Positions 2,559-23,811 of a stretch of 64,000 nt of DNA are shown in pieces. This stretch comes from Patescibacteria group bacterium (GTDB lineage Bacteria > Patescibacteriota > Patescibacteriia > PEXW01). Position 1 is the first letter of the stretch; each line of letters starts with the position of its first letter. Below the pieces are notes generated by a model that saw only the letters and a program-made list of their open reading frames with translations, had not been told where the DNA came from and did no database searches. The stretch spans positions 137,206 through 201,205 of the forward strand of contig JBAYJA010000001.1 of the NCBI GenBank assembly GCA_041665345.1, given 5' to 3'. The translations under genes were made by a program, and so were the position numbers.

Positions 2559-3572
2559 ATGCGTACCAAAATTATTGCCACCCTGGGTCCAAAATCGGAG
2601 AGTCCGGAAGTCATTGCGCAGCTGGTGAAAGCTGGCATGGACATTGCCCGGATGAACTTTAGCCACTGCACGTACGATGAGTACCTGGCGCGGACCAAGC
2701 ACTTACGTGCTATCCAAAAGGAAGTTGGCCGACCCATCAAGATTATGCAAGACCTCCGCGGTCCCCGGTTACGCGTGAGCAATGTACCCAAAGATGGTTT
2801 GGAGTTGACCCACGGCATGATGGTGACGTTTTCTACCAGCACCAAAGATACCAAGGCATTGCATGTCAGTGATCCACATTTGCACAAGGACATTTCGGTT
2901 GATGATCCACTTTTCCTGGTCAATGGCGCGGTTGAACTCACTGTACGGAAGGTGACCGGTACTACTATCCAGGCTGAGGTGATCCACGGGGGCCGGATTT
3001 TTGAGAACACTGCAGTCAACGTGCCCAACACTCGTCTCACCACAGCTGGGTTAACGGCGAAGGATAAAGAGGATGTCCGTTTTGCCTTGGAGCACGGTGT
3101 GGATTACATTGCACTTTCCTTTGTCCAATCCGCAAAGGATGTTGAGGATTTGCGGAAGTTGGTGGGCACAAAAGCCAAGATTATTGCCAAGATCGAACGC
3201 CGAGTTGCCTTGGCGGACATTGATAGCATTATTCAAGCCGCAGACGGCATTATGGTGGCGCGAGGAGATTTGGGTACAGAAATGCCGGTGGAAGAAGTTC
3301 CGTTCATCCAGAAGAATCTCATTCGCCATGCTGCCTGGCACCGGAAGCCCTGCATTGTCGCCACGCAAATGCTGTTCAGCATGGTGGACACGCCGCATCC
3401 CACGCGCGCCGAAGTGTCCGACATTGCCAATGCCGTGTGGGAAGCAGCCGATGCGGTCATGCTTTCTGACGAAACTGCTTCCGGTCTGTACCCAGTGCAG
3501 GCGCTGCAGACCATGGCCAAAGTGGTGAAGCGTGCAGAGCACTTCCGCTACCAGACCGAGAATTTGCTGTAA
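2559..3572 (+). CDS. pyk: pyruvate kinase, short form lacking the C-terminal regulatory domain
   Basis: MRTKIIATLGP..NFSHC..MVARGDLG..ATQMLFSM..MLSDETASG match pyruvate kinase barrel motifs. Only 337 aa against about 470 typical. Confidence 0.9.
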   Translation: MRTKIIATLGPKSESPEVIAQLVKAGMDIARMNFSHCTYDEYLARTKHLRAIQKEVGRPIKIMQDLRGPRLRVSNVPKDGLELTHGMMVTFSTSTKDTKALHVSDPHLHKDISVDDPLFLVNGAVELTVRKVTGTTIQAEVIHGGRIFENTAVNVPNTRLTTAGLTAKDKEDVRFALEHGVDYIALSFVQSAKDVEDLRKLVGTKAKIIAKIERRVALADIDSIIQAADGIMVARGDLGTEMPVEEVPFIQKNLIRHAAWHRKPCIVATQMLFSMVDTPHPTRAEVSDIANAVWEAADAVMLSDETASGLYPVQALQTMAKVVKRAEHFRYQTENLL

Positions 3573-4840: not shown

Positions 4841-5902
4841 GTGAGTATCACGATGAAAGACCATTTGCAGGGAAGCTTGCTGGGGGTTCGCATTGGCGAC
4901 GCACTGGGTATGCCGGTGGAAACCATGTCACCGGCAGAAATTTTAGCGGCTACGGATGGTAAAGGTGTAACGGGATTTTTAGATGCCATTCAGACAAAGT
5001 ATCCCGATCAAGCTATGCTCAAAAAGGGTGATCCAACCGATGACTGGCAGTTTAATCGGATTGTCGCTAAGTCGCTGATTGCTTGTAGGGGTTACAACCA
5101 AGCAGATATGGCGCGTCGGCACGTGGCTGAAAAAGACGTGAATATGATCGGCTGGGGGAAAACCACACGGTCGGCCACCATGGAATTGGCAACCTATTTT
5201 GCCAGCGGAGGCCAGTATGGTCGAGATCCGAACAATTTGCCCGAAGCTAAACCCGATTTTGGTGGCGGGAACGGCGTGGGTATGAAAGTATTTTCACTTC
5301 CCTCGGCAATCCTCGCCGCGGAATATGGTGCCCAGTACCGTTACCCAGAGTACACGTTGTTCCGTTGGGTCGAGCAGCTGACCATGTTAACGCATAGTCA
5401 TAGTGACGCATTTTTTACCGCGTACGCATTGGCGGTTGCGTTTGATGCTTGTGTTCGTGATGCAGTTTATACGTCATCGGATGCGCAACGGCTGCTCCAA
5501 AAAATCGATTTCGAACTTGCTAAAGTTGAAAATGCATCGCGCTATCGAGACGTAAGTGCAACACGCAAACAGATTGGCCGTCTGATGTATTGCATTGGTA
5601 ACCCCGGTAAAGTCACTGAAAATTTCCCTCCATATGGGTTAGCGATTCAGTCTGTACCCTTTGCTTTAGGCATTTTTCTCACCTATCCTGGGGATGCGCG
5701 GAAAGCATTGTTGACCTGTGTAAATGCTGGGTACGATTGCGACACCACGGCAGCCATGTGCGGCAGCCTCCTTGGCGCGAATGGGGGAGTGGAGGCATTC
5801 CCGGCAGAGTGGCGGAACTTCCGACCCGACTTCCAGGAACCGCTGGAGTTGGGCGAAAGATTGTACCAAGCTTTTGCTCGGACGTCCCAACAAACCTCGT
5901 AA
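4841..5902 (+). CDS. ADP-ribosylglycohydrolase family protein (DraG/ARH-like)
   Basis: G(VRI)GDALGMPVE near the N-terminus and CDTTAAMCGSLLGANGG near the C-terminus are the two hallmark Mg-binding motifs. GTG start is 5 nt after an AGGAG SD. Confidence 0.85.
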   Translation: MSITMKDHLQGSLLGVRIGDALGMPVETMSPAEILAATDGKGVTGFLDAIQTKYPDQAMLKKGDPTDDWQFNRIVAKSLIACRGYNQADMARRHVAEKDVNMIGWGKTTRSATMELATYFASGGQYGRDPNNLPEAKPDFGGGNGVGMKVFSLPSAILAAEYGAQYRYPEYTLFRWVEQLTMLTHSHSDAFFTAYALAVAFDACVRDAVYTSSDAQRLLQKIDFELAKVENASRYRDVSATRKQIGRLMYCIGNPGKVTENFPPYGLAIQSVPFALGIFLTYPGDARKALLTCVNAGYDCDTTAAMCGSLLGANGGVEAFPAEWRNFRPDFQEPLELGERLYQAFARTSQQTS

Positions 5903-7569: not shown

Positions 7570-7706
7570 TTACCGAAGAATTCGGTGCGTTACTAGTACC
7601 GCTCCTCAAACCCACACCCTCCATCCATACTCGCTTCCAGCCCTGAGTTTATCGAAGGGCCGCCACGCCCAAACCTTTACCTCTCCAACCCTGTGGATAA
7701 CTTTGG

Positions 7707-7735
7707 GCTTGACGGCTTTTGTGAGCGGGTTTACT
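7707..7735 (+). promoter_or_regulatory. promoter gggcTTGACG-17-TACTAT upstream of the NrtR gene
   Basis: The ORF track proposes a TTG start at 7703 that falls inside this promoter-like box. I interpret the box as a promoter. Confidence 0.45.
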
Positions 7736-7759
7736 ATGTGTATATCTTACACTAAGTAT

Positions 7760-8434
7760 ATGGCCAAGGTTGCTCGGAAGTACAAATTTGCAGTCATTGC
7801 CTCGGATGTCGTCATGCTGACCGTCCGCGATGGAAAGCTGGAAGTGCTTTGCATTCAGATGCAGAAAGCGCCGTTTATTGGGAAATGGGCCGTGCCGGGC
7901 GGGTTAGTGCAGCCAACGGAATCTGTGGACGAAGCCGCACACCGGATTTTGGCGGAAAAAGCCGGAATCCATGGGGTATACCTGGAGCAGCTGTACACCT
8001 TTGGCAAAGTGCGCCGGGATCCTTTTGGCCGCGTGGTTTCTGTGGCGTACTTCGCGCTGGTGCCCAGTGACGCACTCCGTCTGAAGACCACCAAGGAGTA
8101 CAAGGATGTGCAGTGGTTTCCCGTGAAGAAACTGCCTGGCCTGGCTTACGATCACGCAGACATTGTAGCCACGGCTGTGCAGCGCCTGCAGGCCAAGCTG
8201 GGATACACCAACATTGTGTACAGTCTGCTGCCAAAAACCTTTACCCTTTCGGAACTGCAGGGTATGTACGAAACGATTTTGGGAAAAACACTGGACAAGC
8301 GAAATTTTCGGAAAAAAGTCATTGGTTTAAAGCTGGTGAAGCCGGCAGGGGAGCAGCGGAAAGGCCAGGCTAGCCGGCCAGCGGAGCTGTACCGTTTTGC
8401 CGCCACTGAACTGAAGAAAGTGGAGATTCTCTAG
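7760..8434 (+). CDS. nrtR: NrtR-family regulator (Nudix domain fused to a C-terminal winged helix)
   Basis: Nudix signature GKWAVPGGLVQPTESVDEAAHRILAEKAGI. The C-terminal TLSELQGMYETILGKTLDKRNFRKKV is typical of the NrtR DNA-binding domain. Start set at ATG 7760 (MAKVARKYKFAVIASD). Confidence 0.75.
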   Translation: MAKVARKYKFAVIASDVVMLTVRDGKLEVLCIQMQKAPFIGKWAVPGGLVQPTESVDEAAHRILAEKAGIHGVYLEQLYTFGKVRRDPFGRVVSVAYFALVPSDALRLKTTKEYKDVQWFPVKKLPGLAYDHADIVATAVQRLQAKLGYTNIVYSLLPKTFTLSELQGMYETILGKTLDKRNFRKKVIGLKLVKPAGEQRKGQASRPAELYRFAATELKKVEIL

Positions 8435-8838: not shown

Positions 8839-9669
8839 ATGATGATTGTGGAAGGCTTGTCAGGTCGCTACACACTAGGCACGCAAGTAGCAGAAACTGA
8901 GAAGTACCGGCTCTACCTTTGTAGAGAAGAAAGCACAGGCCAAGAGTGCTTGCTGCAGATAGCCACAGACAATCAGCATGATGGCACACTATGCCGTTCT
9001 GCTGTTCGGCTAGAAGTACTCAAACGTGCAGCCGATGCACTTGAAGCCGAGTATGAAAAGGTTCGTGAGAACCCTGAGATGCGGCTGAATTACGCCATTG
9101 GTTTCCCTGAGTTGATTGACAGTTTTCCTTGCATTCCGCAAGGTTCACGTCAGATCAATATCCTTGCATTTAGAAATGTTGAGGATGTGAGACACATGGT
9201 GCCGCTGTGTAATATTACTGTTCGGGATCACCTCCGGGTTGATTTTCGAACCAGTGCATGGATCATGGGGAAATTATTAAAGCTCCTGGTCTTTGCGCAC
9301 AGTCAGGGCATTGCGGTTGGACGGCTGGATAGCGCGAACATTTTGATTGAGCCAAAGCAGCACTACGTGTTGTTCTTTGACTGGTCAGAAGCATTTGTCT
9401 ATCCCGAAACTGTTCCGACGGAAATTGCCCGCCAGGAAATTGCCCAGGCCGCCAACGCGGTGATTACTGTTGTTGGAGGAAATCTGGAAACAAGAACTTT
9501 CCCGGACGACGGCGATACTGCGCAAGATCGCTACACGGATTTTTTGCTGCAGCTGGCTGACGGACGTCAGCGGGATGCACAGCAGGCGCACACGGAATTC
9601 TACAAGCTCGTTGATGAGCTCTGGAAACGTGAGTATTACGAATTCACCACGCTACCCGTACACACGTAA
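8839..9669 (+). CDS. protein-kinase-like fold protein (divergent, possibly a pseudokinase)
   Basis: AHSQGIAVGRLDSANILIEPKQHYVLFFDWSEAF aligns with the kinase catalytic-loop/DFG region (HxxGIxHRDLKPxNILI...DFG). The N-terminal GRYTLGTQVAETEKYRLYL resembles a Gly-rich loop. The canonical VAIK Lys and HRD Asp are not conserved. Start at ATG 8839 follows an AAAGGAGAG SD. Confidence 0.55.
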   Translation: MMIVEGLSGRYTLGTQVAETEKYRLYLCREESTGQECLLQIATDNQHDGTLCRSAVRLEVLKRAADALEAEYEKVRENPEMRLNYAIGFPELIDSFPCIPQGSRQINILAFRNVEDVRHMVPLCNITVRDHLRVDFRTSAWIMGKLLKLLVFAHSQGIAVGRLDSANILIEPKQHYVLFFDWSEAFVYPETVPTEIARQEIAQAANAVITVVGGNLETRTFPDDGDTAQDRYTDFLLQLADGRQRDAQQAHTEFYKLVDELWKREYYEFTTLPVHT

Positions 9670-9690
9670 ACACAGGAAGGAGTTTGATTC

Positions 9691-10809
9691 ATGGGAAAAG
9701 AAACTTTCTCACGAACCACGTACAGCAAATCGTACGCGAAATTCGCGTCAAAAGATGGTCCGGCAACGTCAAAGGCTGAGCAAACAGCCCACAAAACTGG
9801 TAAGCTGAATCCGCTTGTTGATCCGCAGGGATTTGGCGTGATTCGGCGTTCACTGCTTCGTCTGGAGCAGCTCCCAAATAAACTTTGGGAAGTGACCGTC
9901 GGAAGTCCACTCCCTATCGAAACCCGAGTCGACACGACCGGCAGCATGGGGCATAACGTTGATATTGCTTTACGGGTTCTTCCGAATGCATTTGAGCAGA
10001 TCAGCGAGGTAACCCCGGGCTACGATCAGCAGGTTGCCACCGGTATTTTTGGTGACGTGCAGGACCGGTTTGTCCTGTGCCGTCCGCAGTTTGAAATGGT
10101 TGCGGAGAAAATCGTTGAGCAGCTAACCTTAATGGTTCCTGAGCGAGCCGGTGGTGATGCTGACGAAGATCCGCACTACGGCCTATTTGGAGCCGCTTAC
10201 CTGGTTGCCGCGTACATTAATCGGATCGGTCTGAAAAGGTACGATTTCACTGCTTCTGATGCGTCAGCGCGTGATCGACTTGATGAAAGTCAACTTATCC
10301 GAATATTCGGACCCGACGTTTTCGCCAAGGTCGCCGAAAATGGGCATCAAATGCGCGCCGATGATCTCCCCACAACAGCTGATGTTGTGCAAGATCTCCT
10401 CAAACGCGCACATGCCTTTTTCCTGCAGGTTGGCGACAATTCGGAGACCACCAGATTCTGGACAAGAATCTACGGTCGCGAACGCGTGGTCATTCTGCCA
10501 AGCACCGAGCTAATGCCTCAGGTGCAGGCAACGATCATTGGACTGACCGAAGGAACACTCGATCTGAAAGATGTGCCGGCATTCCTGAAGAAGCACAATG
10601 TGCAATTGGGGGATGCTGAGAAAATCGCCCGTTCGGTTGCCAATATTCCAATTGGCGCACAAGCCGCGTTGCCGAATTTTTCCAAGCGTCCCAAGAAGGG
10701 TGACCTCTTCCGTGAGAAGACCGACCTTTGGCCGGTTGATCCACAGGAGCTTGGAAAAGCTAAGCCCCATAAGGCAAAGCCAGGCGACAAAAAGACTGAA
10801 TGGCTGTAA
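9691..10809 (+). CDS. von Willebrand factor A (vWA) domain protein
   Basis: RVDTTGSMG MIDAS (DxSxS-like) motif after a beta strand. A later GGD segment is present. AGGAAGGAG SD 7 nt upstream. Confidence 0.6.
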   Translation: MGKETFSRTTYSKSYAKFASKDGPATSKAEQTAHKTGKLNPLVDPQGFGVIRRSLLRLEQLPNKLWEVTVGSPLPIETRVDTTGSMGHNVDIALRVLPNAFEQISEVTPGYDQQVATGIFGDVQDRFVLCRPQFEMVAEKIVEQLTLMVPERAGGDADEDPHYGLFGAAYLVAAYINRIGLKRYDFTASDASARDRLDESQLIRIFGPDVFAKVAENGHQMRADDLPTTADVVQDLLKRAHAFFLQVGDNSETTRFWTRIYGRERVVILPSTELMPQVQATIIGLTEGTLDLKDVPAFLKKHNVQLGDAEKIARSVANIPIGAQAALPNFSKRPKKGDLFREKTDLWPVDPQELGKAKPHKAKPGDKKTEWL

Positions 10810-13315: not shown

Positions 13316-15286
13316 TTACTTGATTTTTGGCAAGAATACCCGGTTCGCGTAGAGTTGGGTTGCTAGCTGGCGGTAGCCCGAATCCCAGAAGGTGCTCTGC
13401 CCGTCAATGCGATCAGCGTGTGGTGTTTGGATGCCGCCGTGTGCAGGAAAGAATCGTTCATAGCCCTTGTGCATCAAGCGGTACTGGAGGGTGTCGCGTT
13501 CCAGTTCTTCAATGTACAGTCCCCGCGCTTCTCGCCCATGCAGAGTTTTCTGCGTGTCATACATATACGGTGTTAGCAGTTTTTCGCGCAGTTCGCGAAT
13601 CTCGCTGGCGTTTCCTTCCCAGGCCGCGCCAAAGAGAATATGTGTCCAAGAGCTTTCGCCCAGGGATACTTCAGGACTGTTAAAGTCCTGTACACCTAGA
13701 CCCCCTTTCGTTTCCTCAAGCCAGAATGCAACAACATCACCCTGCAGGTGATTTTGGGTAAAAGTTTCTTTCAGCTGCTTCTGCAGTTTTTCGTGCTCAC
13801 TTGGGGCTACCCCTGGCCGCACGAAGACGCCGGTATCCACATCCGCACCGTTAGCGCCGTAACCCTTCAGCCGTGAACCGAAAAGCAATACCACCGGGTA
13901 GAGTTTTTGCGACAGTTCTGGGTTTGCTTCAATGGCCGCCACAATGTTCTGGGTGTCCTGCACCTCTGCTTTCAGCTCTGAGAGGTTCTTAGAAAACGGT
14001 CCGGCGAGCGCAGGGACGGAAATATCCAGCGCTTCAAGCTCCGACGTTGTAATAAGTTGTAGGCCATGGAGACGGAAGAAAGTTTTTTCTAGCTCCTCAT
14101 GTACTGCTGGCGCAGCTGTGTGCCAGAGAGCGGTGAGCGTATCCTGGTAGCGCTCAAAGAGCACCTGCGCTGCTTGGGGGTTGGTTCGTGTGATTGCTTC
14201 AATAGCCTTGCGGATGCCGTTGATGGCTGCTTGCTGGCTTTCTACGCTGGCCTTCGGGTCAAAATACTCCTCAAGGGTGTGCTGATTGAGTGCTCCATTG
14301 GCGATTGCAGTTTGTAGGGCATCCCCAAGCGTTTCCAGAATTTTGCGTTTTTTTTCGCGTGTTAGCCACGCTTCCCGTTTCTTGGTCATACCCGTGTACG
14401 TCTCAGCGTCAATTTGCTTAAATGCATTTTGGATTGTTTCTTGCAATGCGGAAGGGGATAGGGTTGATGCTGTTGTAGTTTCTTGCTTCTCTGAATGTTC
14501 AGAGGGTATAGAAATTTCTAGCGTCACGTTTCTGACAAAAGCATTGGAAGATGCATGCATTGCTTTCAGCTCTGCCTCATGAAGAAGGCCCAGATCTGCC
14601 AAAACCGGTAGCGTGTCTGCAATGCTCTGTTGCAGCGTTTCATCGTCACTAGATTCCAGAAGCTCCACCACCTCCTGGGTTGTCATGAGATTCCGCTCAA
14701 CGAGTTTGGGAATCAGGTGTGCAGCTTTCACAACCCGTGGTAGATCTCCCGCTCGTGATTCCACATCCAGTACGTCGCCGTCAACAAAGTTTGCCCGGAC
14801 ATCGTGCACCGACAAAAGTTTCTCCCACGCCCTACTGTACGCCTGGCGGAATTCCTCCGTAGCCTGTTGCAGCGCTGGAGAGTCTGGTTCCCAGGTCTTT
14901 GGCGGTAAAAATTCAAAGGGGAGGTAGAGTGCTATCCGTTGGTAATCCTCATCTTCAAGCAGGTATTGCAGTGAAGTGTAGAGTTCCGCCACTTCTGCCT
15001 CAGGAATGTTGCCGTTGGCCACTGCTTCTTCCAATGGAAGATCTGGCCGAGGCAGACGAGAGATGACTTCTTGCAACCTTTGATTCAGTTGCCGGCGCGA
15101 TTCAACCTGATTCTGGAATGCCTCATTTTTGGTGACATGGTCAGGCCAGACCTCTGCCGCATGAGCAAGATCCAGGAAGGATTCCACTGCCGGAGGGGCA
15201 ATAGGGTATCCTTCAGCTCGTTCATGTTCTCGTTTGTAGCCTTCATGGTTCATGTACGTAGCATAAAGTGAATACTCAAAACACAC
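13316..15286 (-). CDS. large protein with a C-terminal Pol-beta-type (minimal) nucleotidyltransferase domain
   Basis: LLFGSRLKGYGANGADVDTGVFV matches the GS-x9-13-DxD NTase motif at about residues 455-480 of 656. The 450-aa N-terminal region is helical and acidic, with no motif I recognise. Confidence 0.6.
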   Translation of the reverse strand: MCFEYSLYATYMNHEGYKREHERAEGYPIAPPAVESFLDLAHAAEVWPDHVTKNEAFQNQVESRRQLNQRLQEVISRLPRPDLPLEEAVANGNIPEAEVAELYTSLQYLLEDEDYQRIALYLPFEFLPPKTWEPDSPALQQATEEFRQAYSRAWEKLLSVHDVRANFVDGDVLDVESRAGDLPRVVKAAHLIPKLVERNLMTTQEVVELLESSDDETLQQSIADTLPVLADLGLLHEAELKAMHASSNAFVRNVTLEISIPSEHSEKQETTTASTLSPSALQETIQNAFKQIDAETYTGMTKKREAWLTREKKRKILETLGDALQTAIANGALNQHTLEEYFDPKASVESQQAAINGIRKAIEAITRTNPQAAQVLFERYQDTLTALWHTAAPAVHEELEKTFFRLHGLQLITTSELEALDISVPALAGPFSKNLSELKAEVQDTQNIVAAIEANPELSQKLYPVVLLFGSRLKGYGANGADVDTGVFVRPGVAPSEHEKLQKQLKETFTQNHLQGDVVAFWLEETKGGLGVQDFNSPEVSLGESSWTHILFGAAWEGNASEIRELREKLLTPYMYDTQKTLHGREARGLYIEELERDTLQYRLMHKGYERFFPAHGGIQTPHADRIDGQSTFWDSGYRQLATQLYANRVFLPKIK

Positions 15287-15407: not shown

Positions 15408-15448
15408 GAGATTTGGGAGTGCAAAAGTGCATTTTCACTCCCAAATCT
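15408..15448. promoter_or_regulatory. 41-bp inverted repeat (agatttgggagtg-N14-cactcccaaatct) in the divergent promoter region between the NTase gene and pncA; candidate operator
   Basis: Perfect 13-bp arms. It lies between divergent starts, so it is not a terminator. Confidence 0.45.
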
Positions 15449-15532: not shown

Positions 15533-16081
15533 ATGGGAAACCGTGCGCACATCACCATCGATGTGCAGAATGACTTTTGCCCTGAGGGAAGACTTGCGGT
15601 TACTGCGGGTGATGAAGTTGTACCCGTCATTAACCAGCGGGTGAAGAATCCTGCTTATAAACGCAAGTACAATTCCCGTGATTGGCATCCGCCCGGTTCG
15701 GAGCATTTTAAGAAATGGCCGACGCACTGTGTGGAAAAAACTTTGGGTGCAGCCTTTCATCCGGATTTGGATCTCACAGACGCAGTGATTATTACCAAAG
15801 GTCAAGACCCGGCGCTCGATGGTTACAGCGCCTTTGAGGGTACGACGTCCTGGGGAGCAATGCTGGAAGATGATCTTCGCGCACATGGAATCACCGACAT
15901 TGACATCGAAGGTTTGGCTACTGAATATTGCGTGAAGAAATCTGCTATTGATGGAGCCAAACGTGGTTTCAACGTTACGGTGTACCTCGATGGCTGCCGG
16001 GCAGTGAATATCAAGCCGGGCGACGAAGAAGCAGCGATTGTCGAAATGCGTGCCGCCGGCGTCAACGTTGTGGCCGCCTAA
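15533..16081 (+). CDS. pncA: nicotinamidase/pyrazinamidase (isochorismatase family)
   Basis: ITIDVQNDFC...RDWHPPGSEHF...TEYCVKKSAIDG fits the Asp/Lys/Cys triad pattern. AGGAGG SD. Confidence 0.75.
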   Translation: MGNRAHITIDVQNDFCPEGRLAVTAGDEVVPVINQRVKNPAYKRKYNSRDWHPPGSEHFKKWPTHCVEKTLGAAFHPDLDLTDAVIITKGQDPALDGYSAFEGTTSWGAMLEDDLRAHGITDIDIEGLATEYCVKKSAIDGAKRGFNVTVYLDGCRAVNIKPGDEEAAIVEMRAAGVNVVAA

Positions 16082-16161: not shown

Positions 16162-16232
16162 GACAGTCACCTGACTGTCCCATTCCTCTGGTCATAACAT
16201 AAGGTTGTGGCCTTGCACTTTCAGAAATACAC
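16162..16232 (+). promoter_or_regulatory. regulatory module copy 1: 8-2-8 palindrome gacagtca-cc-tgactgtc, 6 nt, then a 47-nt conserved element ctctggtcataacataaggttgtggccttgcac...
   Basis: Recurs at 16638-16708 with the same spacing, directly upstream of the next gene. The element can form a 9-bp RNA hairpin ggucauaac/guuguggcc using G-U pairs. Confidence 0.55.
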
Positions 16233-16255: not shown

Positions 16256-16570
16256 ATGGTAAACGTACAAGCCTTTGAGTTGCGGAAGTTGATTCCCGAA
16301 CTTGAGGCACAACTCAAGCAAGCGAGACAAGCGCTTGAAGCGATTGAAGCACGGTGCTCGCATAGCTGGGGCCCAGTACAGTACGACCCCATCGAGCATG
16401 CTGCATATCACATTCCCGGCGACCCGCCGGAGTTTAGCGGCGCAGATCATCGATTTCCAATGGACGTGCCCGCCCGAACCGAGAAACGTTGGCGACGGGA
16501 TTGCATCCATTGCGGAAAACCAGAATACACAAACCATACAAAACCTGCTGGGGAAGAGCCAGTGTTCTAA
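16256..16570 (+). CDS. hypothetical small protein (Cys/His-rich)
   Basis: 104 aa. CSHSW...CIHCGKPEY. SD gaggtg upstream. Confidence 0.5.
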   Translation: MVNVQAFELRKLIPELEAQLKQARQALEAIEARCSHSWGPVQYDPIEHAAYHIPGDPPEFSGADHRFPMDVPARTEKRWRRDCIHCGKPEYTNHTKPAGEEPVF

Positions 16571-16637
16571 TGGATGTTGTGGGTGAAGTATGTGCTTGTT
16601 TGTGCATACTTCACCCCTTTCTCATGAAGAGACGAGA

Positions 16638-16708
16638 GATGATTATGTGATCATCTTCTATCTCTGGTCATAACATTAGGTTGTGGCCTTGCACCTTAAG
16701 AAAATGAA
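16638..16708 (+). promoter_or_regulatory. regulatory module copy 2: palindrome gatgatta-tg-tgatcatc, 6 nt, then the conserved element ctctggtcataacattaggttgtggccttgcacc...
   Basis: About 90% identical to copy 1 over 47 nt. A partial third copy (tgcaccttgaaaacatg) lies at 18256-18285 upstream of the Nudix/pncB genes. Confidence 0.55.
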
Positions 16709-16731
16709 TTTCATCCGAAAGTGAGGATACA

Positions 16732-18132
16732 GTGAAAGTCATCATGTATGGCTTAAGCGCTAATCCGCCTGGGATACACCATCGTTTATTGGTGCAGGAA
16801 ATGGCGAAGTATGCAGACCTGGTCATTGTGGTGCCGTGCGGTTTACGGCCGGACAAGTTGACCACGAATGATATCCCGCCGTTGTACCGTGCAGCAATGA
16901 CCGACATGACCTTTCAGGACATTCCAAATGTATGCGTGGATCTGTCTGACTTAGAACGATCAGTATTCACGCGAAGTTGGGAGTTGTTGCAAAGGTATGA
17001 GCGAGAATATCCTGGAGCGGAACTTTGCTTGGCAGTTGGTGGCGATCTTATTGCCAACGGTCGCTATGGTGAGTCAGCCATTCACCGCAAGTGGGAGCAG
17101 GGGAAAACACTGTGGGAAAATGCAAACTTCATTGTTTGCAATCGCCTGCACACTCCCTTTGATCCTGTGGATCTACCCCCACACTGCCAGTTTGTGCATG
17201 TAGACCTTGTCGGTTCCAGCACAGACATTCGGGATCGCGTGTTCGGACACAAACCAATTACCGGTTTGGTGATGCCGAGCGTGGAGACCTACATTCATCG
17301 GTACAATCTGTACCGGGGCATGATGGCGGCCACAACCGCGAAGCATGCCAGCTTAGATAATCCTCGCCTGCTCATACTGGCAGATGCTGAGACGCCACGA
17401 GCAATGGCAATCGCTTCGCAGTTCGCGCGGTTTGAGGATGCTGAAAATCCAAACGGCATTTTGGTCTGTGGCGGTGATGGCATGATGCTGCAAGCAATTC
17501 GGCAGGAGTGGCGCCGACGTTTGCCCTTCATCGGCATGAATGCTGGCCATTGGGGGTTCCTCATGAATAGCTTCGAAGAAATCACCGCAATGGATCACGC
17601 CTTTGATGACCTCTCTTTTGTCCAGTCGCCCATGCTGTACGTGGAGTCAGTGCGGCCAGATGGAACCACGGCAAATGCCTTGGCGTTCAACGACTGCTGG
17701 ACGCATTCGCAGAACAATGGGCAAGCAGCGAAATCTGAGGTTCGCGTGAACGGCAGAGTCTGCCTCAAGTCCGTGGTGTCAGATGGCATGCTGGTGAGTA
17801 CGGCCGCGGGATCAACCTCGTATGCGCGGGCAATGGGCGCTATGCCACTTCCGGTGGGCTCGAGTCAGCTTATCCTCGTGGGCAGCAATGTGTTTTCCCC
17901 CTTTGGGTGGCGGCCAGCGTACCTGCCAATTACCGATCGGATTTGCATCCGAACTTTGGAACCGGAGAAGCGTCCGGTAGATGCATTTGTTGATGGTATT
18001 TCCTTTGGGCAAACCATGCAGCTCGATGCCCGAACCAGCAATATTGCTTCCGTGGAAATTGGATTCTTCGGCGCACACGATTTGCAGGAGAAGATCCGCG
18101 CAATTCAGTTCGTTGAGCAGTATCTTCAATAG
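16732..18132 (+). CDS. bifunctional fusion: nicotinate/nicotinamide-mononucleotide adenylyltransferase (NadD-like) N-terminal, NAD kinase (NadK) C-terminal
   Basis: The N-terminus MYGLSANPPGIHHRLL matches the (H/T)xGH nucleotidyltransferase motif of NadD. The C-terminus has GGDGMML (NAD kinase GGDGT motif), NDxW and TAAGSTSYARAMGA (NadK GSTAYS motif). It is a single 466-aa ORF. Confidence 0.8.
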   Translation: MKVIMYGLSANPPGIHHRLLVQEMAKYADLVIVVPCGLRPDKLTTNDIPPLYRAAMTDMTFQDIPNVCVDLSDLERSVFTRSWELLQRYEREYPGAELCLAVGGDLIANGRYGESAIHRKWEQGKTLWENANFIVCNRLHTPFDPVDLPPHCQFVHVDLVGSSTDIRDRVFGHKPITGLVMPSVETYIHRYNLYRGMMAATTAKHASLDNPRLLILADAETPRAMAIASQFARFEDAENPNGILVCGGDGMMLQAIRQEWRRRLPFIGMNAGHWGFLMNSFEEITAMDHAFDDLSFVQSPMLYVESVRPDGTTANALAFNDCWTHSQNNGQAAKSEVRVNGRVCLKSVVSDGMLVSTAAGSTSYARAMGAMPLPVGSSQLILVGSNVFSPFGWRPAYLPITDRICIRTLEPEKRPVDAFVDGISFGQTMQLDARTSNIASVEIGFFGAHDLQEKIRAIQFVEQYLQ

Positions 18133-18302
18133 TCGCACTTTCCATTGTGCGGGGGCATGGTTCTACTCCATGCCCCCCGCATATTCCTTCAAAGCTTTGC
18201 AACGAACTTGGTTGGTTGCAGCGCTTTCATCCAGAAATAGTTCTGGGTGATGCACCTTGAAAACATGCAAGCAAATGAACATATATTTGAGAAAGGAACA
18301 TT

Positions 18303-18917
18303 ATGGTACAGCCAAAAGTGCGACCGCAAGGCAGTTTCGCCTTGGAGACTGTTGATATCAATGGTCGAAATTGGTCGGTGCTACACGCTTCAGACTCAGC
18401 CGGTTTATTGGTCTTTCTGAAAGATCGTAATGCCATTGTGCTGGTCCGGCAGCAGCGTGCGCCCATGGTTTCTGCACACAATCCGGAAGGTTCGATTACG
18501 GAACTTCTCGCTGGTCGGTTCGACAAAGACGAGACGCCAATCCAGTTGCTGGTTCGCGAGGCTTCAGAGGAAGCTGGAATCGCCATTGATGCCAGTCAGA
18601 TCAAAGTACTCAACTTTGGTCACCCGCTTGCCCTCTCAGCCGGCATTATTGATGAACTATGCTGGATTGGTTACGTGGAAATTTCCGATGACCAAATTGA
18701 CCCCAGCGGTAAGCTTTACGGACTGCACGAGGAAGGAGAGTTCATTGACCGGATCATGATTCCGGTTGAGCAACTTGAATCCCTGGTTTGTGAAGATGCT
18801 CGTGTCTTCGGCATGATCCAGTGGTTCCTGCGTTGGCAAATGGAACACCGTCTGCAAGCATTAACAGACCAGCTGGAGAAATTCGAACGCGAGATGAACG
18901 AAACGAAAACGATTTGA
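18303..18917 (+). CDS. Nudix hydrolase, likely ADP-ribose pyrophosphatase
   Basis: Nudix box GRFDKDETPIQLLVREASEEAGI. Sits between nadD-nadK and pncB. Confidence 0.7.
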   Translation: MVQPKVRPQGSFALETVDINGRNWSVLHASDSAGLLVFLKDRNAIVLVRQQRAPMVSAHNPEGSITELLAGRFDKDETPIQLLVREASEEAGIAIDASQIKVLNFGHPLALSAGIIDELCWIGYVEISDDQIDPSGKLYGLHEEGEFIDRIMIPVEQLESLVCEDARVFGMIQWFLRWQMEHRLQALTDQLEKFEREMNETKTI

Positions 18918-18926
18918 AGGGAGTGA

Positions 18927-20195
18927 TTGAAGGTGCTTACAACACGCTTTATTCGAAAAGATGAGGCGATCATCCAGTCGTTGCTTGACGTGGACTTCTA
19001 TAAGTTCACGATGAGCCACTTCATTTGGAAGTACTACCGGGACGTCGAGGTAACCTTCGGGATGAAGAACCGTACGAGTCACGTTCGCCTCGCGGAAATT
19101 ATTCCAGAAGGAGCTTTACGTGAGCAGCTGAACTACGTCCGGGATTACCTCAGATTCAACTTGAGTGAAATTTTTTACATGCGAGGTATGGATATCTACG
19201 GGAAGAACATGTTTTCGGAGGATTACCTGGATTTCCTGAAGGCACTCGCCATGAGTGATTATCAGTTACGCGTGGTTGATGGTCAGTTTGATCTACGCTT
19301 CACTTGTCTTTGGCCGGCCGTTACTTTCTGGGAGACAATTTCGCTGGCGATTGCCAACGAGTTGTACTACCTAGAAATCCTGAAGGAAGAAACTCGGTTC
19401 GATCGACAGGCAATCTATGCCGAAGGTATCAAGCGACTCCACGAGAAAATAAAAAAACTCAAGGAGCACCCTGACCTAACATTCATCGAGTTTGGTACAC
19501 GCCGGAGATTTGGCCGAGTTTGGCAGCGCGATGTCGTCTGTGCGTTAGCCGAAGAATTACCACCGACGCAATTCCGTGGTACGTCAAACACAAAGTTGGC
19601 GTTTGACCTTGGCTTAGTTCCCATGGGTACCAACGCGCATGAACTGCAAATGGTAGTTGGCGCCCTCGCTAAGGACGATGCTGCACTTCTGGCTTCCACT
19701 GACAAAGTGCTTGATCAGTGGTGGGAGTTGTACGGTTACGGTCTCTCTATCGCGCTACCGGACACTTTTGGCTCCGATTTCTTCTTTCAAACATTTGGTG
19801 AAGAGCGAGCAAAGAAGTGGAAAGGTGTGCGGGAGGACTCCCGTGATCCGTTTGTGGGCGGCGAGCAAGTTATTCAGTACTACCAGAGTCTAGGTATTGA
19901 CCCCAAGACGAAGCTCTGGTTGCCGAGTGATGGTTTAGACATTCAGAAGATCATCGCGCTTCACAATCAATTTTGTAACCGCATCGGCCTGTCATTTGGC
20001 TGGGGCACAACCCTCACGAATGATCTCGGTTTACCCACGCTCTCTCTTGTCGCCAAGACAATTGAAGCGAATGGCCGACCGTGTGTGAAGCTTTCGGACA
20101 ATTTGGCCAAGGCCATGGGTCCGAAAGATGAAGTCGAACGGTATAAACGCGTATTCGGCTATACGAATACGCATACCGAAGAGTGCAAAGTCTGA
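18927..20195 (+). CDS. pncB: nicotinate phosphoribosyltransferase
   Basis: 422 aa with NAPRTase-family motifs (FGTRR...; LPDTFGSDFF; VREDSRDP). TTG start is 4 nt after an AAGGGAG SD. Confidence 0.85.
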   Translation: MKVLTTRFIRKDEAIIQSLLDVDFYKFTMSHFIWKYYRDVEVTFGMKNRTSHVRLAEIIPEGALREQLNYVRDYLRFNLSEIFYMRGMDIYGKNMFSEDYLDFLKALAMSDYQLRVVDGQFDLRFTCLWPAVTFWETISLAIANELYYLEILKEETRFDRQAIYAEGIKRLHEKIKKLKEHPDLTFIEFGTRRRFGRVWQRDVVCALAEELPPTQFRGTSNTKLAFDLGLVPMGTNAHELQMVVGALAKDDAALLASTDKVLDQWWELYGYGLSIALPDTFGSDFFFQTFGEERAKKWKGVREDSRDPFVGGEQVIQYYQSLGIDPKTKLWLPSDGLDIQKIIALHNQFCNRIGLSFGWGTTLTNDLGLPTLSLVAKTIEANGRPCVKLSDNLAKAMGPKDEVERYKRVFGYTNTHTEECKV

Positions 20196-20327: not shown

Positions 20328-20807
20328 ATGCGCGTCGTATACTGGCTTGAAACCTTTCCACCACCGAGTGACAAATCAATTTTTTTAGCCGGACCTACGC
20401 CACGGCATGAAGGAGTGCAAACCTGGCGTCCAAAGGCGCTGGAAACGTTGGAGCGGCTTGGGTATGACGGCGTGGTCTTTGTACCTGAGTATCGTAACGG
20501 CCAGTTGCCAAAGGTGGATATGGCAGCGTATACGGATCGGATTGACTGGGAAACCAGTGCCCTTGCGCGGGCTCAAGTTATTGCCTTCTGGGTACCACGT
20601 GTACTGGAGACCATGCCAGCCTTCACGACCAATATCGAATTTGGTGAATGGTTCAAGTCCGGCAAAATTGTTCTGGGTACGCCGCCAGAAGCGCGGAAGG
20701 TAAGTTACATGCGTTACCGCGCTGGTCAACATCTGGTGCCGCTGGCAGAAACGTTGGAAGACACGCTGAAACTGGCTTTGCGGAAGCTGGGCGATCTTGC
20801 AAAGTAA
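20328..20807 (+). CDS. nucleoside 2-deoxyribosyltransferase-like (Rossmann) protein
   Basis: IFLAGPTPR ... VIAFWVPR ... TNIEFGEW resembles the NDT/YtoQ family pattern. AGGAGG SD. Confidence 0.5.
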   Translation: MRVVYWLETFPPPSDKSIFLAGPTPRHEGVQTWRPKALETLERLGYDGVVFVPEYRNGQLPKVDMAAYTDRIDWETSALARAQVIAFWVPRVLETMPAFTTNIEFGEWFKSGKIVLGTPPEARKVSYMRYRAGQHLVPLAETLEDTLKLALRKLGDLAK

Positions 20808-20926: not shown

Positions 20927-22588
20927 GTGAAAATCGCTTTGCTCCAACTGAATTTTACCGTGGGTGATTTAGAAGGAAACACCACGAAGATTATTGCTGG
21001 CTATCAGCAGGCGAAAGCGCAAGGTGCGCGGTATGCAGTGAGTTCGGAGTTGGCTATCTTTGGCTACCCGCCTCAGGATTTGTTGGAATTTCCAGAATAC
21101 TTGGAACGTCAAGATGCGCAAATTGAACGCCTCCGTCAGGAAGTGAAGGGCGAAACGAGCCTCATTGTTGGCATTGCGGAGCGGAATACCACCGGGACAG
21201 GGAAACCCCTGTTTAACAGTGTGATACACATCTACGATCAACAGGTGCTGGTTATTGGTCGGAAGTGTTTACTGCCGACGTACGATGTATTTGATGAGCA
21301 GCGGTATTTCACGCCTGCCGAACTCCCGCGTCCGATCAGGCGGGATAGGACATCCATCGCCACATTAGTATGCGAAGACATTTGGTACGGTTCTGAATTT
21401 GTCAGCGGTCATCATCTGTACAAAGATGATCCAGTCGGTCACCTTGAGGGTCTGGGTGTGGACTTCCTTTTCGTTCTCAACGGTTCGCCGTACACCTGGC
21501 ACAAAGGTCGGGAGCGGTTTACCCTAGTGCAGAATATCGCACAGCGTTGCAAGTGTAACGTAGTGTACGTCAATCAAGTTGGCGGCAATGACGACATTCT
21601 TTTTGACGGCCGGAGTTTCGTTGTCAATCCCCAAGGGGAATGCATTGGCGCTGCGGAGCCGTTCAAGGAGCAGGTTGTTATAGTCGATATGGACAACCCT
21701 ACTCCGGTTGCGTATCCGTTCGATGATAACCTGCGTGATCTCTACGATGCTTTGGTTATGGCCACCCGTGATTACATTGCGAAAGTTGGTTGTCAGCAAG
21801 GTGTGGTCATTGGCCTTTCTGGCGGTATTGACTCTGCGTTAACCGCGGCAATCGCAGTTGATGCGCTGGGCCCCGACAAGGTTGTAGGCATAACCATGCC
21901 CTCAGTGCTCTCTTCGAGCGGGAGCGTCAGTGACTCTCTGGCTCTCGCCAAGAATTTGGGAATACAGTGTTTCACCGTTCCCATTGGTTGTACGGTTGAT
22001 AGCTACGGGAAAGCGCTGGAGCCGATCATTGGTTGGTACCCAGCAACTGCACGACCGGGTGATGTGACCGAGGAGAACATCCAGGCCAGGACGCGGGGGA
22101 ATATACTCATGGCGCTTTCAAACCGGGTGGGAAAAATCGTTTTGACCACCGGCAACAAATCGGAAGTGGCTGTGGGCTACTGCACGTTGTACGGCGATAT
22201 GGCAGGTGGGTATGCGGTCATTTCCGACATTCCCAAGACTTTGGTGTATGCACTCTCAAGGTACGTCAATCGGTTTGGAGAAATCATTCCCGAAAGTACC
22301 CTCACCAAGCCGCCATCGGCCGAACTTCGACCGGATCAGAAAGACACTGATTCATTGCCGGCGTATGAGGTGCTGGATCCGATTCTGAAAGCCTACAATG
22401 AAGATCGGATGACGGTAGGGCAGATTATCGAGCTTGGTTTGGCGGATGCAGCCACAGTGCATCGGGTCATTCGCATGGTCAACACGAATGAGTTCAAACG
22501 GCGGCAACTTGCACCGGGTCCGAAGGTAACCTCCAAAGCCTTTGGGTCTGGTCGGCGCATGCCCATTGCTGCCAAAATGATTAGCTAG
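20927..22588 (+). CDS. nadE: glutamine-dependent NAD+ synthetase
   Basis: N-terminal CN-hydrolase domain (MKIALLQLNFTVGD...). C-terminal PP-loop SGGIDSALTAAIA. 553 aa. Confidence 0.9.
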   Translation: MKIALLQLNFTVGDLEGNTTKIIAGYQQAKAQGARYAVSSELAIFGYPPQDLLEFPEYLERQDAQIERLRQEVKGETSLIVGIAERNTTGTGKPLFNSVIHIYDQQVLVIGRKCLLPTYDVFDEQRYFTPAELPRPIRRDRTSIATLVCEDIWYGSEFVSGHHLYKDDPVGHLEGLGVDFLFVLNGSPYTWHKGRERFTLVQNIAQRCKCNVVYVNQVGGNDDILFDGRSFVVNPQGECIGAAEPFKEQVVIVDMDNPTPVAYPFDDNLRDLYDALVMATRDYIAKVGCQQGVVIGLSGGIDSALTAAIAVDALGPDKVVGITMPSVLSSSGSVSDSLALAKNLGIQCFTVPIGCTVDSYGKALEPIIGWYPATARPGDVTEENIQARTRGNILMALSNRVGKIVLTTGNKSEVAVGYCTLYGDMAGGYAVISDIPKTLVYALSRYVNRFGEIIPESTLTKPPSAELRPDQKDTDSLPAYEVLDPILKAYNEDRMTVGQIIELGLADAATVHRVIRMVNTNEFKRRQLAPGPKVTSKAFGSGRRMPIAAKMIS

Positions 22589-22947: not shown

Positions 22948-23811
22948 ATGAATATGAAGGTAGAAAATTTTTTTGGCATAACCAGTATCATTGCCATTTT
23001 GGTGCTAGTTTCTGCATTTACCGCTTCGTACCGTGAGCAGAAGCAGCAATTGCAGCTACTGAACCATAACCCTAGCGTGCAAGTCCTGACGTCGAACGCG
23101 AACATTACCGGGACGAGTATTCTAGATACGGCAACCATAGGCCAGCACAGCACGGCAGGGGATTGCTGGTTGCTGATTCAGGGAAGTGTTTACGACGCCA
23201 CTCAATACCTGCAATTACACCCGGGTGGCCAATCTATTGTTCTACCTTTTTGTGGTGCAGATGCAACCTCGGCGTTTCTGACAAAAGGTGGCCAAGGCTC
23301 ACACTCGCGCACCGCTTTTACCCAGTTGGGTGCGCTATACCTGGGTCAGCTGAACGAGGTCATTGGAAACAGCAATACCAACAGCACCAACACGAACACC
23401 GTGAGTGCGGTGAACACCAACACCGTGACGGTGAATGCGAATACTTCGGCCAGTGTGCCACAACCAAGCAGCACGGTGGTTCTGAATACGGCGACAGTAG
23501 CGAAACATAATACTGCTACCGATTGCTGGCTCATCATTTCTGGGAAAGTCTACGCCGTCAGTGGCTACCTCAGTGCGCACCCGGGTGGTCGTTCCACCAT
23601 TATTCCCTACTGTGGTCGGGATGCAACCCAGGCCTTTGCCACGCAAGGTGGGCAGGGTTCGCACTCCAACTTTGCCAGCCAGCAGCTCAGTGGTTTGGTC
23701 ATTGGCACTGTGGGCAGCACGACCACAACCACAAAAGTGCAGCAAATTGTAACACCATCACCAACTTCGCCCACCACGAATGGGCAGGAAGAAGAAAACG
23801 ATGATGACTAA
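22948..23811 (+). CDS. membrane-anchored protein with two tandem cytochrome b5-like heme-binding domains
   Basis: N-terminal TM helix, then two repeats of HxxxxDCWLxIxGxVYxxxxYLxxHPGGxxxIxxxCGxDATxAF...GGQGSHS, joined by an NTN-rich linker. Confidence 0.75.
   Translation: MNMKVENFFGITSIIAILVLVSAFTASYREQKQQLQLLNHNPSVQVLTSNANITGTSILDTATIGQHSTAGDCWLLIQGSVYDATQYLQLHPGGQSIVLPFCGADATSAFLTKGGQGSHSRTAFTQLGALYLGQLNEVIGNSNTNSTNTNTVSAVNTNTVTVNANTSASVPQPSSTVVLNTATVAKHNTATDCWLIISGKVYAVSGYLSAHPGGRSTIIPYCGRDATQAFATQGGQGSHSNFASQQLSGLVIGTVGSTTTTTKVQQIVTPSPTSPTTNGQEEENDDD

What the first reader, a model, noticed from the sequence alone, without database searches (positions are those of the whole stretch)
16732..18132. 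Single-polypeptide fusion of NaMN/NMN adenylyltransferase and NAD kinase
NadD-like and NadK domains are normally separate proteins. Here one 466-aa ORF carries both the HxGH adenylyltransferase motif and the GGDG/NDxW/GST(A/S)YS NAD-kinase motifs. This would channel NaMN to NaAD and NAD to NADP in one enzyme. I am not aware of this being a common architecture.
Basis: partly seen in the sequence, partly recalled or inferred. Interest (0 to 1): 0.55.

Follow-up and report, generated by a model that had tools for sequence, protein, structure and literature searches.

The report
NadD–NadK fusion enzyme, common family
One gene in this small-genome (Patescibacteria) bacterium does encode two NAD-pathway enzymes in a single protein, but the same fusion occurs in hundreds of other bacterial species, so it is real, untested in the lab, and not rare.

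Summary
Window 16732..18132 (+) is one uninterrupted 466-aa ORF. Residues 1-200 are a NadD-type NaMN adenylyltransferase domain. Residues 205-466 are a complete short-type NAD kinase.

It is not an assembly artefact. Independent assemblies carry the identical ORF, and more than 119 homologues align end to end across the junction.

- The architecture is not unusual. At least 271 species-representative genomes carry it, in Verrucomicrobiota (including cultured Brevifollis), Planctomycetota, Acidobacteriota and Patescibacteria. Pipelines call it "NAD(+)/NADH kinase" or "hypothetical protein".
- The adenylyltransferase motif is not HxGH. It is a family-wide variant, NPPGxHH.
- The two reactions are not consecutive, because NadE acts between them. 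Substrate channelling is therefore unsupported.

The gene sits in a nicotinamide-to-NADP salvage cluster: pncA, fusion, Nudix, pncB, NDT-like gene, nadE. An NrtR-type regulator lies nearby.

The N-domain belongs to a distinct GxHH NadD clade. That clade also occurs alone, fused to NadE, and fused to a Nudix homologous to the neighbouring gene here.

Best reading: a bifunctional NaMN adenylyltransferase/NAD kinase. No activity has been measured, and I found no paper on the fusion. Interest is modest.

The parts
16732..18132 (+). Complete NadD-NadK fusion ORF, 466 aa plus stop. Identical to NCBI MFA6473387.1, 'hypothetical protein WCV85_00770', Patescibacteria MAG.
16723..16727 (+). GAGGA Shine-Dalgarno-like sequence 5 nt before GTG 16732. 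It favours the GTG start (466 aa) over JGI's ATG 16744 (462 aa). The GTG start also restores the first beta-strand (E2-8) seen in homologues.
   Evidence: read from the sequence; alignment; model; JGI call
16732..17331 (+). NadD-type nucleotidyltransferase domain, residues 1-200.
   Evidence: TIGR00482 E 6.6e-20 over the full model. PDB NadD sequence hits. Foldseek top 50 are all NaMN adenylyltransferases, TM 0.67-0.86.
16750..16782 (+). First active-site motif, G-L-S-A-N-P-P-G-I-H-H (residues 7-17). This is the family variant NPPGxHH in place of the canonical PxHxGH. H17 is invariant; G14 and H16 are at least 90% conserved.
17215..17232 (+). Second nucleotidyltransferase motif, S-S-T-D-I-R (residues 162-167), of the ISSTxxR type. 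S163 and R167 are at least 90% conserved.
17344..18129 (+). Short-type NAD kinase domain, residues 205-466. There is no free linker: the last NadD helix (182-190) runs directly into the first kinase strands.
   Evidence: NF003406 E 7.6e-41. PDB NAD kinases by sequence and by fold, E about 1e-17, TMt 0.64-0.80. Secondary structure.
17470..17481 (+). GGDG motif of NAD kinases (residues 247-250), invariant in 119 homologues.
17782..17826 (+). D-G-M-L-V-S-T-A-A-G-S-T-S-Y-A (residues 351-365), the glycine-rich NAD-kinase motif. D351, G360 and Y364 are invariant.
16662..16703 (+). 42-nt element upstream of the fusion. It contains the 23-bp imperfect palindrome GGTCATAAC-ATTAG-GTTGTGGCC (16666-16688). 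Candidate promoter or operator.
16186..16227 (+). Second copy (93% identical) of the same 42-nt element, upstream of orf104 (16256-16570).
18149..18180 (+). GC-rich hairpin just after the stop codon. It may end the transcript, but it lacks a T-run and the terminator scan did not report it.
   Evidence: read from the sequence; scan
15533..16081 (+). Nicotinamidase PncA (isochorismatase family; PRK11609 E 1.1e-44).
18303..18917 (+). Nudix hydrolase of the YffH/AdpP (ADP-ribose pyrophosphatase) type. It is homologous (36% identity, E 9e-34) to the Nudix domain fused to the same NadD clade in protein P0305.
18927..20195 (+). Nicotinate phosphoribosyltransferase PncB.
20328..20807 (+). Protein resembling nucleoside 2-deoxyribosyltransferase (PF15891). 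Its role is unknown.
20927..22588 (+). Glutamine-dependent NAD synthetase NadE (CN_hydrolase plus NAD_synthase). It performs the step between the two activities of the fusion.
7703..8434 (+). NrtR-family regulator (Nudix domain plus NrtR winged-helix domain).

Best explanation
The gene encodes a bifunctional enzyme of NAD(P) synthesis.

- **N-terminal domain:** a NadD-family adenylyltransferase of a distinct 'NPPGxHH' clade. It most likely adenylates nicotinate mononucleotide with ATP to give NaAD.
- **Middle step:** the separately encoded NadE converts NaAD to NAD.
- **C-terminal domain:** a short-type NAD kinase. It phosphorylates NAD to NADP.
- **Pathway:** with PncA and PncB next door, the cluster supplies a complete route from nicotinamide to NADP in a roughly 1-Mb Patescibacteria genome.
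- **Why fused:** the fusion most plausibly serves co-expression, fixed stoichiometry or genome economy, not channelling, because the two reactions are not consecutive.

**Shown here:** the ORF, both domain identities by sequence profile and predicted fold, conservation of catalytic motifs, the gene neighbourhood, and wide distribution of the architecture.

**Inferred:** that both domains are active, that NaMN rather than NMN is the substrate, and that this is the cell's only NadD and NadK.
For: - **Domain identity:** profile hits for both halves. PDB homologues by sequence. Predicted-fold neighbours are NaMN adenylyltransferases for the N half and NAD kinases for the full-length model.
- **Model quality:** pLDDT 94.9 and pTM 0.93, which suggests a fixed arrangement of the two domains.
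- **Selection on both halves:** equal conservation (52.9% and 53.3% identity, r = 0.65) and invariant H17, GGDG, D351, G360 and Y364 over 119 homologues.
- **Pathway context:** pncA, fusion, Nudix, pncB, NDT-like, nadE in the window. Most of this gene set recurs, in order, around the fusion in the closest relatives L001-L004, L009 and L020. nadE lies directly downstream of the fusion in L032, and L069 has pncA-fusion-pncB-nadE.
- **Other fusions of the same NadD clade:** it is fused to NAD synthetase (P0273, P0328, P0355). It is fused to a Nudix homologous to the window's neighbour (P0305, P0381). It occurs in a DBI_PRT-NadD-NadK triple fusion (P0383). The NadE fusions join consecutive NaMN to NaAD to NAD steps.
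- **No second copy nearby:** no other NadD- or NadK-like sequence in the 64-kb window.
Against: - No biochemical data exist for any family member that I could find.
- The first histidine of the canonical (H/T)xGH motif is glycine.
- The protein scores below NCBI's curated cut-offs for both NadD (72 against 112 bits) and NAD kinase (140 against 211 bits). Pfam detects only a marginal NAD_kinase hit and no CTP_transf_like hit in this member.
- NaMN versus NMN preference cannot be read from the sequence.
- In most Verrucomicrobiota and Planctomycetota loci the fusion is not next to salvage genes.
- I could not check the rest of the genome for stand-alone nadD or nadK.
Confidence: 0.65

Rival explanations
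1. The N-domain prefers NMN, or accepts both NMN and NaMN. The polypeptide would then catalyse two consecutive steps, NMN to NAD to NADP, and the fusion could bring a kinetic or channelling benefit.
For: - The GSFNPP sequence resembles the GSFNPI motif of eukaryotic dual-specificity NMNATs (my own recollection, not tested here).
- Most fusion loci outside Patescibacteria are not clustered with nadE, pncA or pncB.
- pTM 0.93 suggests a rigid two-domain body.
Against: - The top 50 structural neighbours are all NaMN-type NadD enzymes, not NadM, NadR or human NMNAT.
- The same clade is fused to NadE, which is needed only if NaAD is the product.
- The window and its nearest relatives place the fusion among pncA, pncB and nadE.
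Confidence: 0.17
2. The N-terminal domain has lost catalysis and acts as a regulatory or oligomerisation module. The protein would be simply a long NAD kinase, as PGAP names its relatives.
For: - The first His of (H/T)xGH is replaced by Gly.
- The score is below the TIGR00482 cut-off.
- NCBI names relatives 'NAD(+)/NADH kinase'.
Against: - The variant motif NPPGxHH is itself nearly invariant, as are K42, R53, W121, S163 and R167.
- Stand-alone proteins of about 200 aa in the same clade keep these residues. They have no kinase to regulate.
- The first motif position also varies in other members of the superfamily, for example S-L-G-H in PDB 3h05.
- The N half is as conserved as the C half.
Confidence: 0.1
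3. The fusion is a specialised paralogue that coexists with ordinary stand-alone nadD and nadK genes. It might, for example, be a salvage-specific or stress-induced isozyme under the control of the shared upstream palindrome.
For: - The gene has its own conserved upstream element, shared with a neighbouring unrelated ORF.
- Two Acidobacteriota loci carry a second, divergent nucleotidyltransferase directly upstream of the fusion.
Against: - A genome of about 1 Mb is unlikely to keep redundant copies (inference; contig size).
- No second copy lies in the 64-kb window.
- The fusion appears once per locus in all 80 loci.
Confidence: 0.07
4. A sequencing or assembly error joined two adjacent genes by missing a stop codon or a frameshift near 17300.
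For: None found.
Against: - Independent assemblies carry the identical ORF.
- 119 homologues align across the junction with only small gap differences.
- All 80 loci from different species show contiguous halves.
- The model is confident through residues 190-215.
Confidence: 0.01

Closest known systems
Bacterial NadD (nicotinate-nucleotide adenylyltransferase, EC 2.7.7.18; TIGR00482; e.g. B. subtilis 1kam/1kaq, B. anthracis 3e27)
   Same: - Same fold (TM 0.78-0.86) and same length.
- The match covers the full model.
- The ISSTxxR-type motif, the final His of the first motif and the GxD...W region are conserved.
   Different: - The first motif is NPPGxHH, not PxHxGH.
- PPHK becomes RPDK, and SYTxDT becomes FTRT.
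- There is an insertion of about 8 residues before W121.
- The score is below the curated cut-off, and the domain is fused to a kinase.
Short-type NAD kinases (NF003406/PRK04761, 257 aa; T. maritima 1yt5, 258 aa)
   Same: - GGDG, NxGxxGFL, NDxW-type and DGxxxST..GST.Y motifs are present.
- Both subdomains are present.
- Fold match at E about 1e-17.
   Different: - About 28% sequence identity or less.
- The score is below the NF003406 cut-off.
- The domain is preceded by a NadD domain with no linker.
Other bifunctional NAD enzymes: NadM-Nudix (PRK05379), NadR (NMNAT plus ribosylnicotinamide kinase, TIGR01526), archaeal NADP phosphatase/NAD kinase (NF010678/PRK14076)
   Same: Same principle: one NAD-pathway adenylyltransferase or kinase joined to a second NAD-related activity. 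The NCBIfam models for these appear as weak hits.
   Different: Different domain families or combinations. None of them joins NadD to NadK. I found no paper on a NadD-NadK fusion.

Membership tests
NadD / NaMN adenylyltransferase (TIGR00482, PF01467 superfamily) | Rossmann-like nucleotidyltransferase fold of about 190 aa matching the NadD profile end to end | tested here: met
   TIGR00482 positions 2-194 of 194, E 6.6e-20. The N-domain model has pLDDT 95.3. The top 50 PDB neighbours are all NadD-type enzymes, TM 0.67-0.86.
NadD / NaMN adenylyltransferase (TIGR00482, PF01467 superfamily) | Canonical (H/T)xGH ATP-binding motif | tested here: not met
   The sequence is G14-I-H16-H17. Only the last His is in the canonical place. 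The variant is conserved family-wide.
NadD / NaMN adenylyltransferase (TIGR00482, PF01467 superfamily) | ISSTxxR second motif | tested here: met
   S162-S-T-D-I-R167 aligns with SSTMIR of 1kam. S163 and R167 are at least 90% conserved.
NadD / NaMN adenylyltransferase (TIGR00482, PF01467 superfamily) | Score at or above the curated family cut-off | tested here: not met
   72 bits against a cut-off of 112.45. Pfam CTP_transf_like was not reported for this member, although it is precomputed for most homologues.
NadD / NaMN adenylyltransferase (TIGR00482, PF01467 superfamily) | NaMN + ATP to NaAD activity, with preference for NaMN over NMN | not testable with these tools
   Only context speaks to this: the pncA/pncB/nadE cluster and NadE fusions of the same clade.
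NAD kinase (PF01513/PF20143; NF003406) | GGDG motif and the glycine-rich DG...ST..GST.Y motif | tested here: met
   G247-G-D-G250 is invariant. D351, G360 and Y364 are invariant.
NAD kinase (PF01513/PF20143; NF003406) | Two-subdomain NAD kinase fold | tested here: met
   Foldseek against 7qvs, 1yt5 and 1u0t: E about 2e-17, TMt 0.75-0.79.
NAD kinase (PF01513/PF20143; NF003406) | Score at or above the curated cut-offs | tested here: inconclusive
   PF01513: 25.9 against 25.5, just met. PF20143: 18.3 against 23.7, not met. NF003406: 140 against 211, not met.
NAD kinase (PF01513/PF20143; NF003406) | ATP- or polyphosphate-dependent phosphorylation of NAD | not testable with these tools
NadD-NadK fusion family (uncharacterised; PGAP name 'NAD(+)/NADH kinase') | Collinear full-length similarity over both domains at about 460 aa | tested here: met
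   The best 120 hits have 43-59% identity, 95-100% coverage and lengths of 450-526 aa. 271 species-representative genomes encode a relative; the best 80 are 43-51% identical and nearly all match about residues 2-460.

The most novel reading that the evidence does not exclude
The NPPGxHH clade could be a mechanistically distinct pyridine-nucleotide adenylyltransferase. On this reading, its recurrent fusion to NadK, NadE and Nudix reflects physical coupling. Two forms are conceivable:
- The kinase acts on the N-domain's own product, giving NaAD to deamido-NADP, with NadE amidating afterwards.
- NADP(H) bound at the kinase domain feeds back on the adenylyltransferase.

The fusion would also be the sole NadD and NadK of Patescibacteria, Verrucomicrobiota, Planctomycetota and some Acidobacteriota.
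Probability: 0.1. Interest if true: 0.55.

Novelty: new member of a known kind. Interest (0 to 1): 0.3.

Why it matters
- **Annotation:** pipelines give this family half a name or none ('NAD(+)/NADH kinase', 'hypothetical protein'). Metabolic reconstructions of Patescibacteria, Verrucomicrobiota, Planctomycetota and Acidobacteriota could therefore wrongly report NadD, an essential enzyme, as missing.
- **Metabolism of reduced genomes:** reading the protein as bifunctional closes the nicotinamide-to-NADP route in a reduced genome that presumably depends on salvaged vitamin B3.
- **Enzymology:** the GxHH variant of the nucleotidyltransferase signature is a tidy test case. It asks whether a histidine moved two positions can replace the canonical first histidine.
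- **Limit:** none of this changes the known chemistry of NAD synthesis.

Tried and rejected
- **Source contig lookup:** The look-up of encoding contigs on the JGI version P0001 returned nothing. I could not scan the rest of the genome for stand-alone nadD or nadK.
- **Literature:** six full-text searches for the fusion found no description of it; a seventh query was rejected on syntax. A review I tried to fetch by a PMC id recalled from memory is not held.
- **Phage origin rejected:** no phage record covers more than 50% of the protein. The window carries cellular genes (Suf, SOD, sigma-70, copper ATPase). Its SufB is identical to one from a Patescibacteria MAG.
- **Upstream palindrome as an NrtR operator:** it lacks the published 21-bp symmetry and GT-N7-AC core, and its spacer varies between 4 and 5 nt. 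Not established.
- **Upstream palindrome as an RNA hairpin or riboswitch:** no meaningful Rfam match. Pairing is imperfect on either strand across the 7 instances.
- **Second nucleotidyltransferase next to the fusion:** seen in L025, but it recurs only in L023. It is not a general partner.

Full report
**1. What is in the sequence**

Window 16732..18132 (+) is a single open reading frame of 466 codons, from GTG to TAG. The other five frames hold only short ORFs.

A GAGGA sequence at 16723-16727 lies 5 nt before the GTG. JGI's gene call starts four codons later, at ATG 16744, giving 462 aa. Homologues have four to six residues ahead of the first glycine, and the model places a beta-strand at residues 2-8. 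I therefore prefer the GTG start, which is also NCBI's 466-aa call.

**2. Two domains**

NCBIfam gives two non-overlapping matches:
- Residues 6-194 match TIGR00482, nicotinate (nicotinamide) nucleotide adenylyltransferase. E is 6.6e-20 and the match covers model positions 2-194 of 194.
- Residues 223-461 match NF003406, a 257-position NAD kinase model. E is 7.6e-41 over positions 20-256.

Both scores are below NCBI's curated cut-offs (72 against 112 bits; 140 against 211 bits). Pfam alone sees only a marginal NAD_kinase hit. That probably explains why PGAP left this protein as 'hypothetical'.

Sequence search of the PDB finds NadD structures for the first half (1kam, 2h29, 5db4; E about 2e-7). 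It finds NAD kinases for the second half (1yt5, 7mh7, 1u0r; E 1e-11 to 1e-10).

AlphaFold2 with 119 homologues gives pLDDT 94.9 and pTM 0.93 for the whole chain. Foldseek of that model returns NAD kinases (E about 2e-17, TMt 0.75-0.79 for the best). No PDB chain covers both halves (TMq at most 0.48).

The N-domain modelled alone has pLDDT 95.3. Its top 50 PDB neighbours are all NadD-type NaMN adenylyltransferases, with TM up to 0.86.

There is no free linker. The last NadD helix (residues 182-190) is followed directly by the first strands of the kinase N-subdomain.

**3. Motifs**

The adenylyltransferase motif is not HxGH. Aligned with B. subtilis NadD (F-D-P-P-H-N-G-H), the protein reads A-N-P-P-G-I-H-H. 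The canonical first His is Gly, the canonical Gly is His, and the last His is kept.

This is a family signature rather than decay in this one gene. GGSFNPPGxHHR is the dominant form among 119 homologues, with H17 invariant. The second motif, SSTDIR at 162-167, is retained.

The first motif position also varies elsewhere in the superfamily. PDB 3h05 has S-L-G-H.

**4. Not an artefact**

- The identical protein is called on a 1,075,605-bp NCBI/ENA/Logan contig and a 696,942-bp JGI contig. A member of the same 90%-identity cluster lies on a third MAG contig.
- All 119 aligned homologues run across the junction with near-identical gap patterns.
- All 80 fetched loci from different species have both halves contiguous.

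**5. Not rare**

- The word-indexed protein search returned 598 relatives. The best 120 are all 450-526 aa, 43-59% identical, and cover at least 95% of the query. Most carry both PF01467 and PF01513 in the precomputed domains.
- A scan of one genome per GTDB species found 271 genomes encoding a relative. Two peptide patterns seeded that scan, so 271 is a lower bound.
- The 80 best are mostly Verrucomicrobiota, including the cultured Brevifollis gellanilyticus NBRC 108608, plus MAGs labelled Prosthecobacter, Chthoniobacter flavus, Luteolibacter and Akkermansiaceae.
- Others are Planctomycetota, Acidobacteriota/Blastocatellia and Patescibacteria (Parcubacteria, Komeilibacteria, Uhrbacteria). A few MAGs carry other labels.
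- Where named, they are called 'NAD(+)/NADH kinase'.
- Both halves are equally conserved and their divergences correlate (52.9% and 53.3% mean pairwise identity, r = 0.65). This fits long co-inheritance under selection on both.

**6. A distinct NadD clade that fuses repeatedly**

I ran phmmer with residues 1-203 against 1.84 billion cluster representatives. It found 135 clusters at E of 1e-30 or better. By length, the best 150 split as follows:
- 79 of NadK-fusion length (440-500 aa).
- 56 of stand-alone length (250 aa or less).
- 15 others.

The ten stand-alone members I read all keep NPP(G/A)xHH and PCGxRPDK.

The 'others' include several further fusions:
- NAD synthetase fused to NadD: P0273 (509 aa), P0328 (644 aa) and P0355 (836 aa, which also has the glutaminase domain).
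- NadD fused to Nudix: P0305 and P0381.
- A phosphoribosyltransferase(DBI_PRT)-NadD-NadK triple fusion: P0383.

The Nudix of P0305 is 36% identical (E 9e-34) to the Nudix gene next to the fusion in this window. The NadE part of P0355 aligns over the whole of the window's NadE (E 6e-42).

So this clade appears fused to each of three partners that are neighbours or fusion partners here. The NadE fusions join consecutive NaMN to NaAD to NAD steps. That is the best in-silico argument that the domain is an active NaMN adenylyltransferase.

**7. Context**

The window comes from a Patescibacteria (CPR) genome:
- Its SufB is 100% identical to a protein NCBI labels 'Patescibacteria group bacterium', on the 1.08-Mb contig. 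The next-best named hits are Parcubacteria and Kerfeldbacteria.
- An archaeal-type AMP phosphorylase-like gene is present.

Around the fusion lie:
- PncA, 15533-16081
- a 104-aa ORF of unknown function, 16256-16570
- the fusion
- a YffH/AdpP-type Nudix, 18303-18917
- PncB, 18927-20195
- a PF15891 protein, 20328-20807
- glutamine-dependent NadE, 20927-22588

Upstream are an NrtR-family regulator (7703-8434) and an ADP-ribosylglycohydrolase (4841-5902).

Most of the same gene set surrounds the fusion, in the same order, in the closest relatives L001-L004, L009 and L020. It does not in the Verrucomicrobiota or Planctomycetota loci. No second NadD- or NadK-like sequence lies in the 64 kb.

**8. 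How it most likely works**

- **Shown:** a two-domain protein whose halves are a NadD-family and a NAD-kinase-family domain. Its catalytic signatures are conserved, and in this lineage it sits in a Preiss-Handler salvage cluster.
- **Inferred:** PncA converts nicotinamide to nicotinate. PncB converts nicotinate to NaMN. The N-domain converts NaMN to NaAD. NadE converts NaAD to NAD. The C-domain converts NAD to NADP.
- **On channelling:** NadE intervenes, so the fusion does not link consecutive reactions. That rival reading is disfavoured by the NadE fusions, the NadD-type structural neighbours and the pncB/nadE context.
- **Why fused:** co-expression or stoichiometry is the economical explanation, and it remains untested. 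The high pTM would also fit regulatory cross-talk, for example NADP(H) feedback.

**9. Comparison with what is known, and novelty**

Both activities are textbook. Other bifunctional NAD enzymes are known: NadR, NadM-Nudix and the archaeal NADP phosphatase/NAD kinase.

Six full-text searches of the held library for the fusion found no description of a NadD-NadK fusion. The library lacks most subscription journals, so absence there is weak evidence.

The window's protein is a new member of a large family that databases already hold but nobody appears to have characterised. The practical point is annotation: the NadD function is unnamed in PGAP output for this family.

**10. Verdict**

The finding is ordinary in distribution, and its enzymology is mildly interesting and untested. 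Interest 0.3.

Noticed in passing
window 16186-16227 and 16662-16703; L001 9920-9941; L002 1832-1853; L003 8848-8869 and 9920-9942; L004 9924-9945: A 42-nt direct repeat (93% identical) holds an imperfect palindrome, GGYCAYAAC-N4/5-GTTGYGRCC. It lies about 45-65 nt upstream of both orf104 and the fusion gene. The same palindrome precedes the fusion in the four closest relatives, and in L003 it also precedes an unrelated 297-aa ORF. It occurs nowhere else in the window. It is a candidate shared operator or promoter. It does not fit the published NrtR core, and its pairing is imperfect as RNA.
   Followed up: partly
window 4841-5902 and 7703-8434: An ADP-ribosylglycohydrolase and an NrtR-family regulator (Nudix plus winged helix) lie about 8-12 kb upstream of the salvage cluster. 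The region from 4.8 to 22.6 kb looks like an NAD/ADP-ribose metabolism island.
   Followed up: partly
proteins P0273, P0328, P0355, P0305, P0381, P0383: The same NPPGxHH NadD clade also occurs fused to NAD synthetase, to a Nudix hydrolase, and in a DBI_PRT-NadD-NadK triple fusion. About 56 of the best 150 cluster representatives are of stand-alone length.
   Followed up: partly
L025 8493-9947 and L023 about 9222-9857: In two Acidobacteriota genomes, a radical-SAM protein and a second, divergent nucleotidyltransferase (GSFDPLHRGH ... ISSSRIR, 240 aa) sit directly upstream of the fusion. This was not seen in the other 78 loci.
   Followed up: partly
window 16256-16570: A 104-aa ORF with no family match lies between pncA and the fusion. 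It has the same upstream 42-nt element and is followed by a strong hairpin (16581-16616). No homologue was found in the 80 related loci.
   Followed up: partly
window 13316-15286 (-): A 656-aa ORF divergent from pncA has no Pfam or NCBIfam family. By eye, its C-terminal part contains a Pol-beta-type nucleotidyltransferase-like stretch (LFGSRLKGYGANGADVDTGVF). A 17-nt-arm perfect-looking palindrome (15409-15448) lies in the intergenic region it shares with pncA.
   Followed up: no
window 22948-23811: A 287-aa protein with two cytochrome b5-like heme-binding domains lies just after nadE. This may be an unusual domain for a Patescibacteria genome.
   Followed up: no
window 45161-46666: An archaeal-type AMP phosphorylase/thymidine phosphorylase homologue (TIGR03327, 531 bits against a cut-off of 535). 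It fits the nucleotide-salvage pathway, which I recall (not checked here) as reported for CPR bacteria.
   Followed up: no
window 2559-3572: The pyruvate kinase ORF is only 337 aa and matches the barrel domain alone. The usual C-terminal domain appears to be absent.
   Followed up: no
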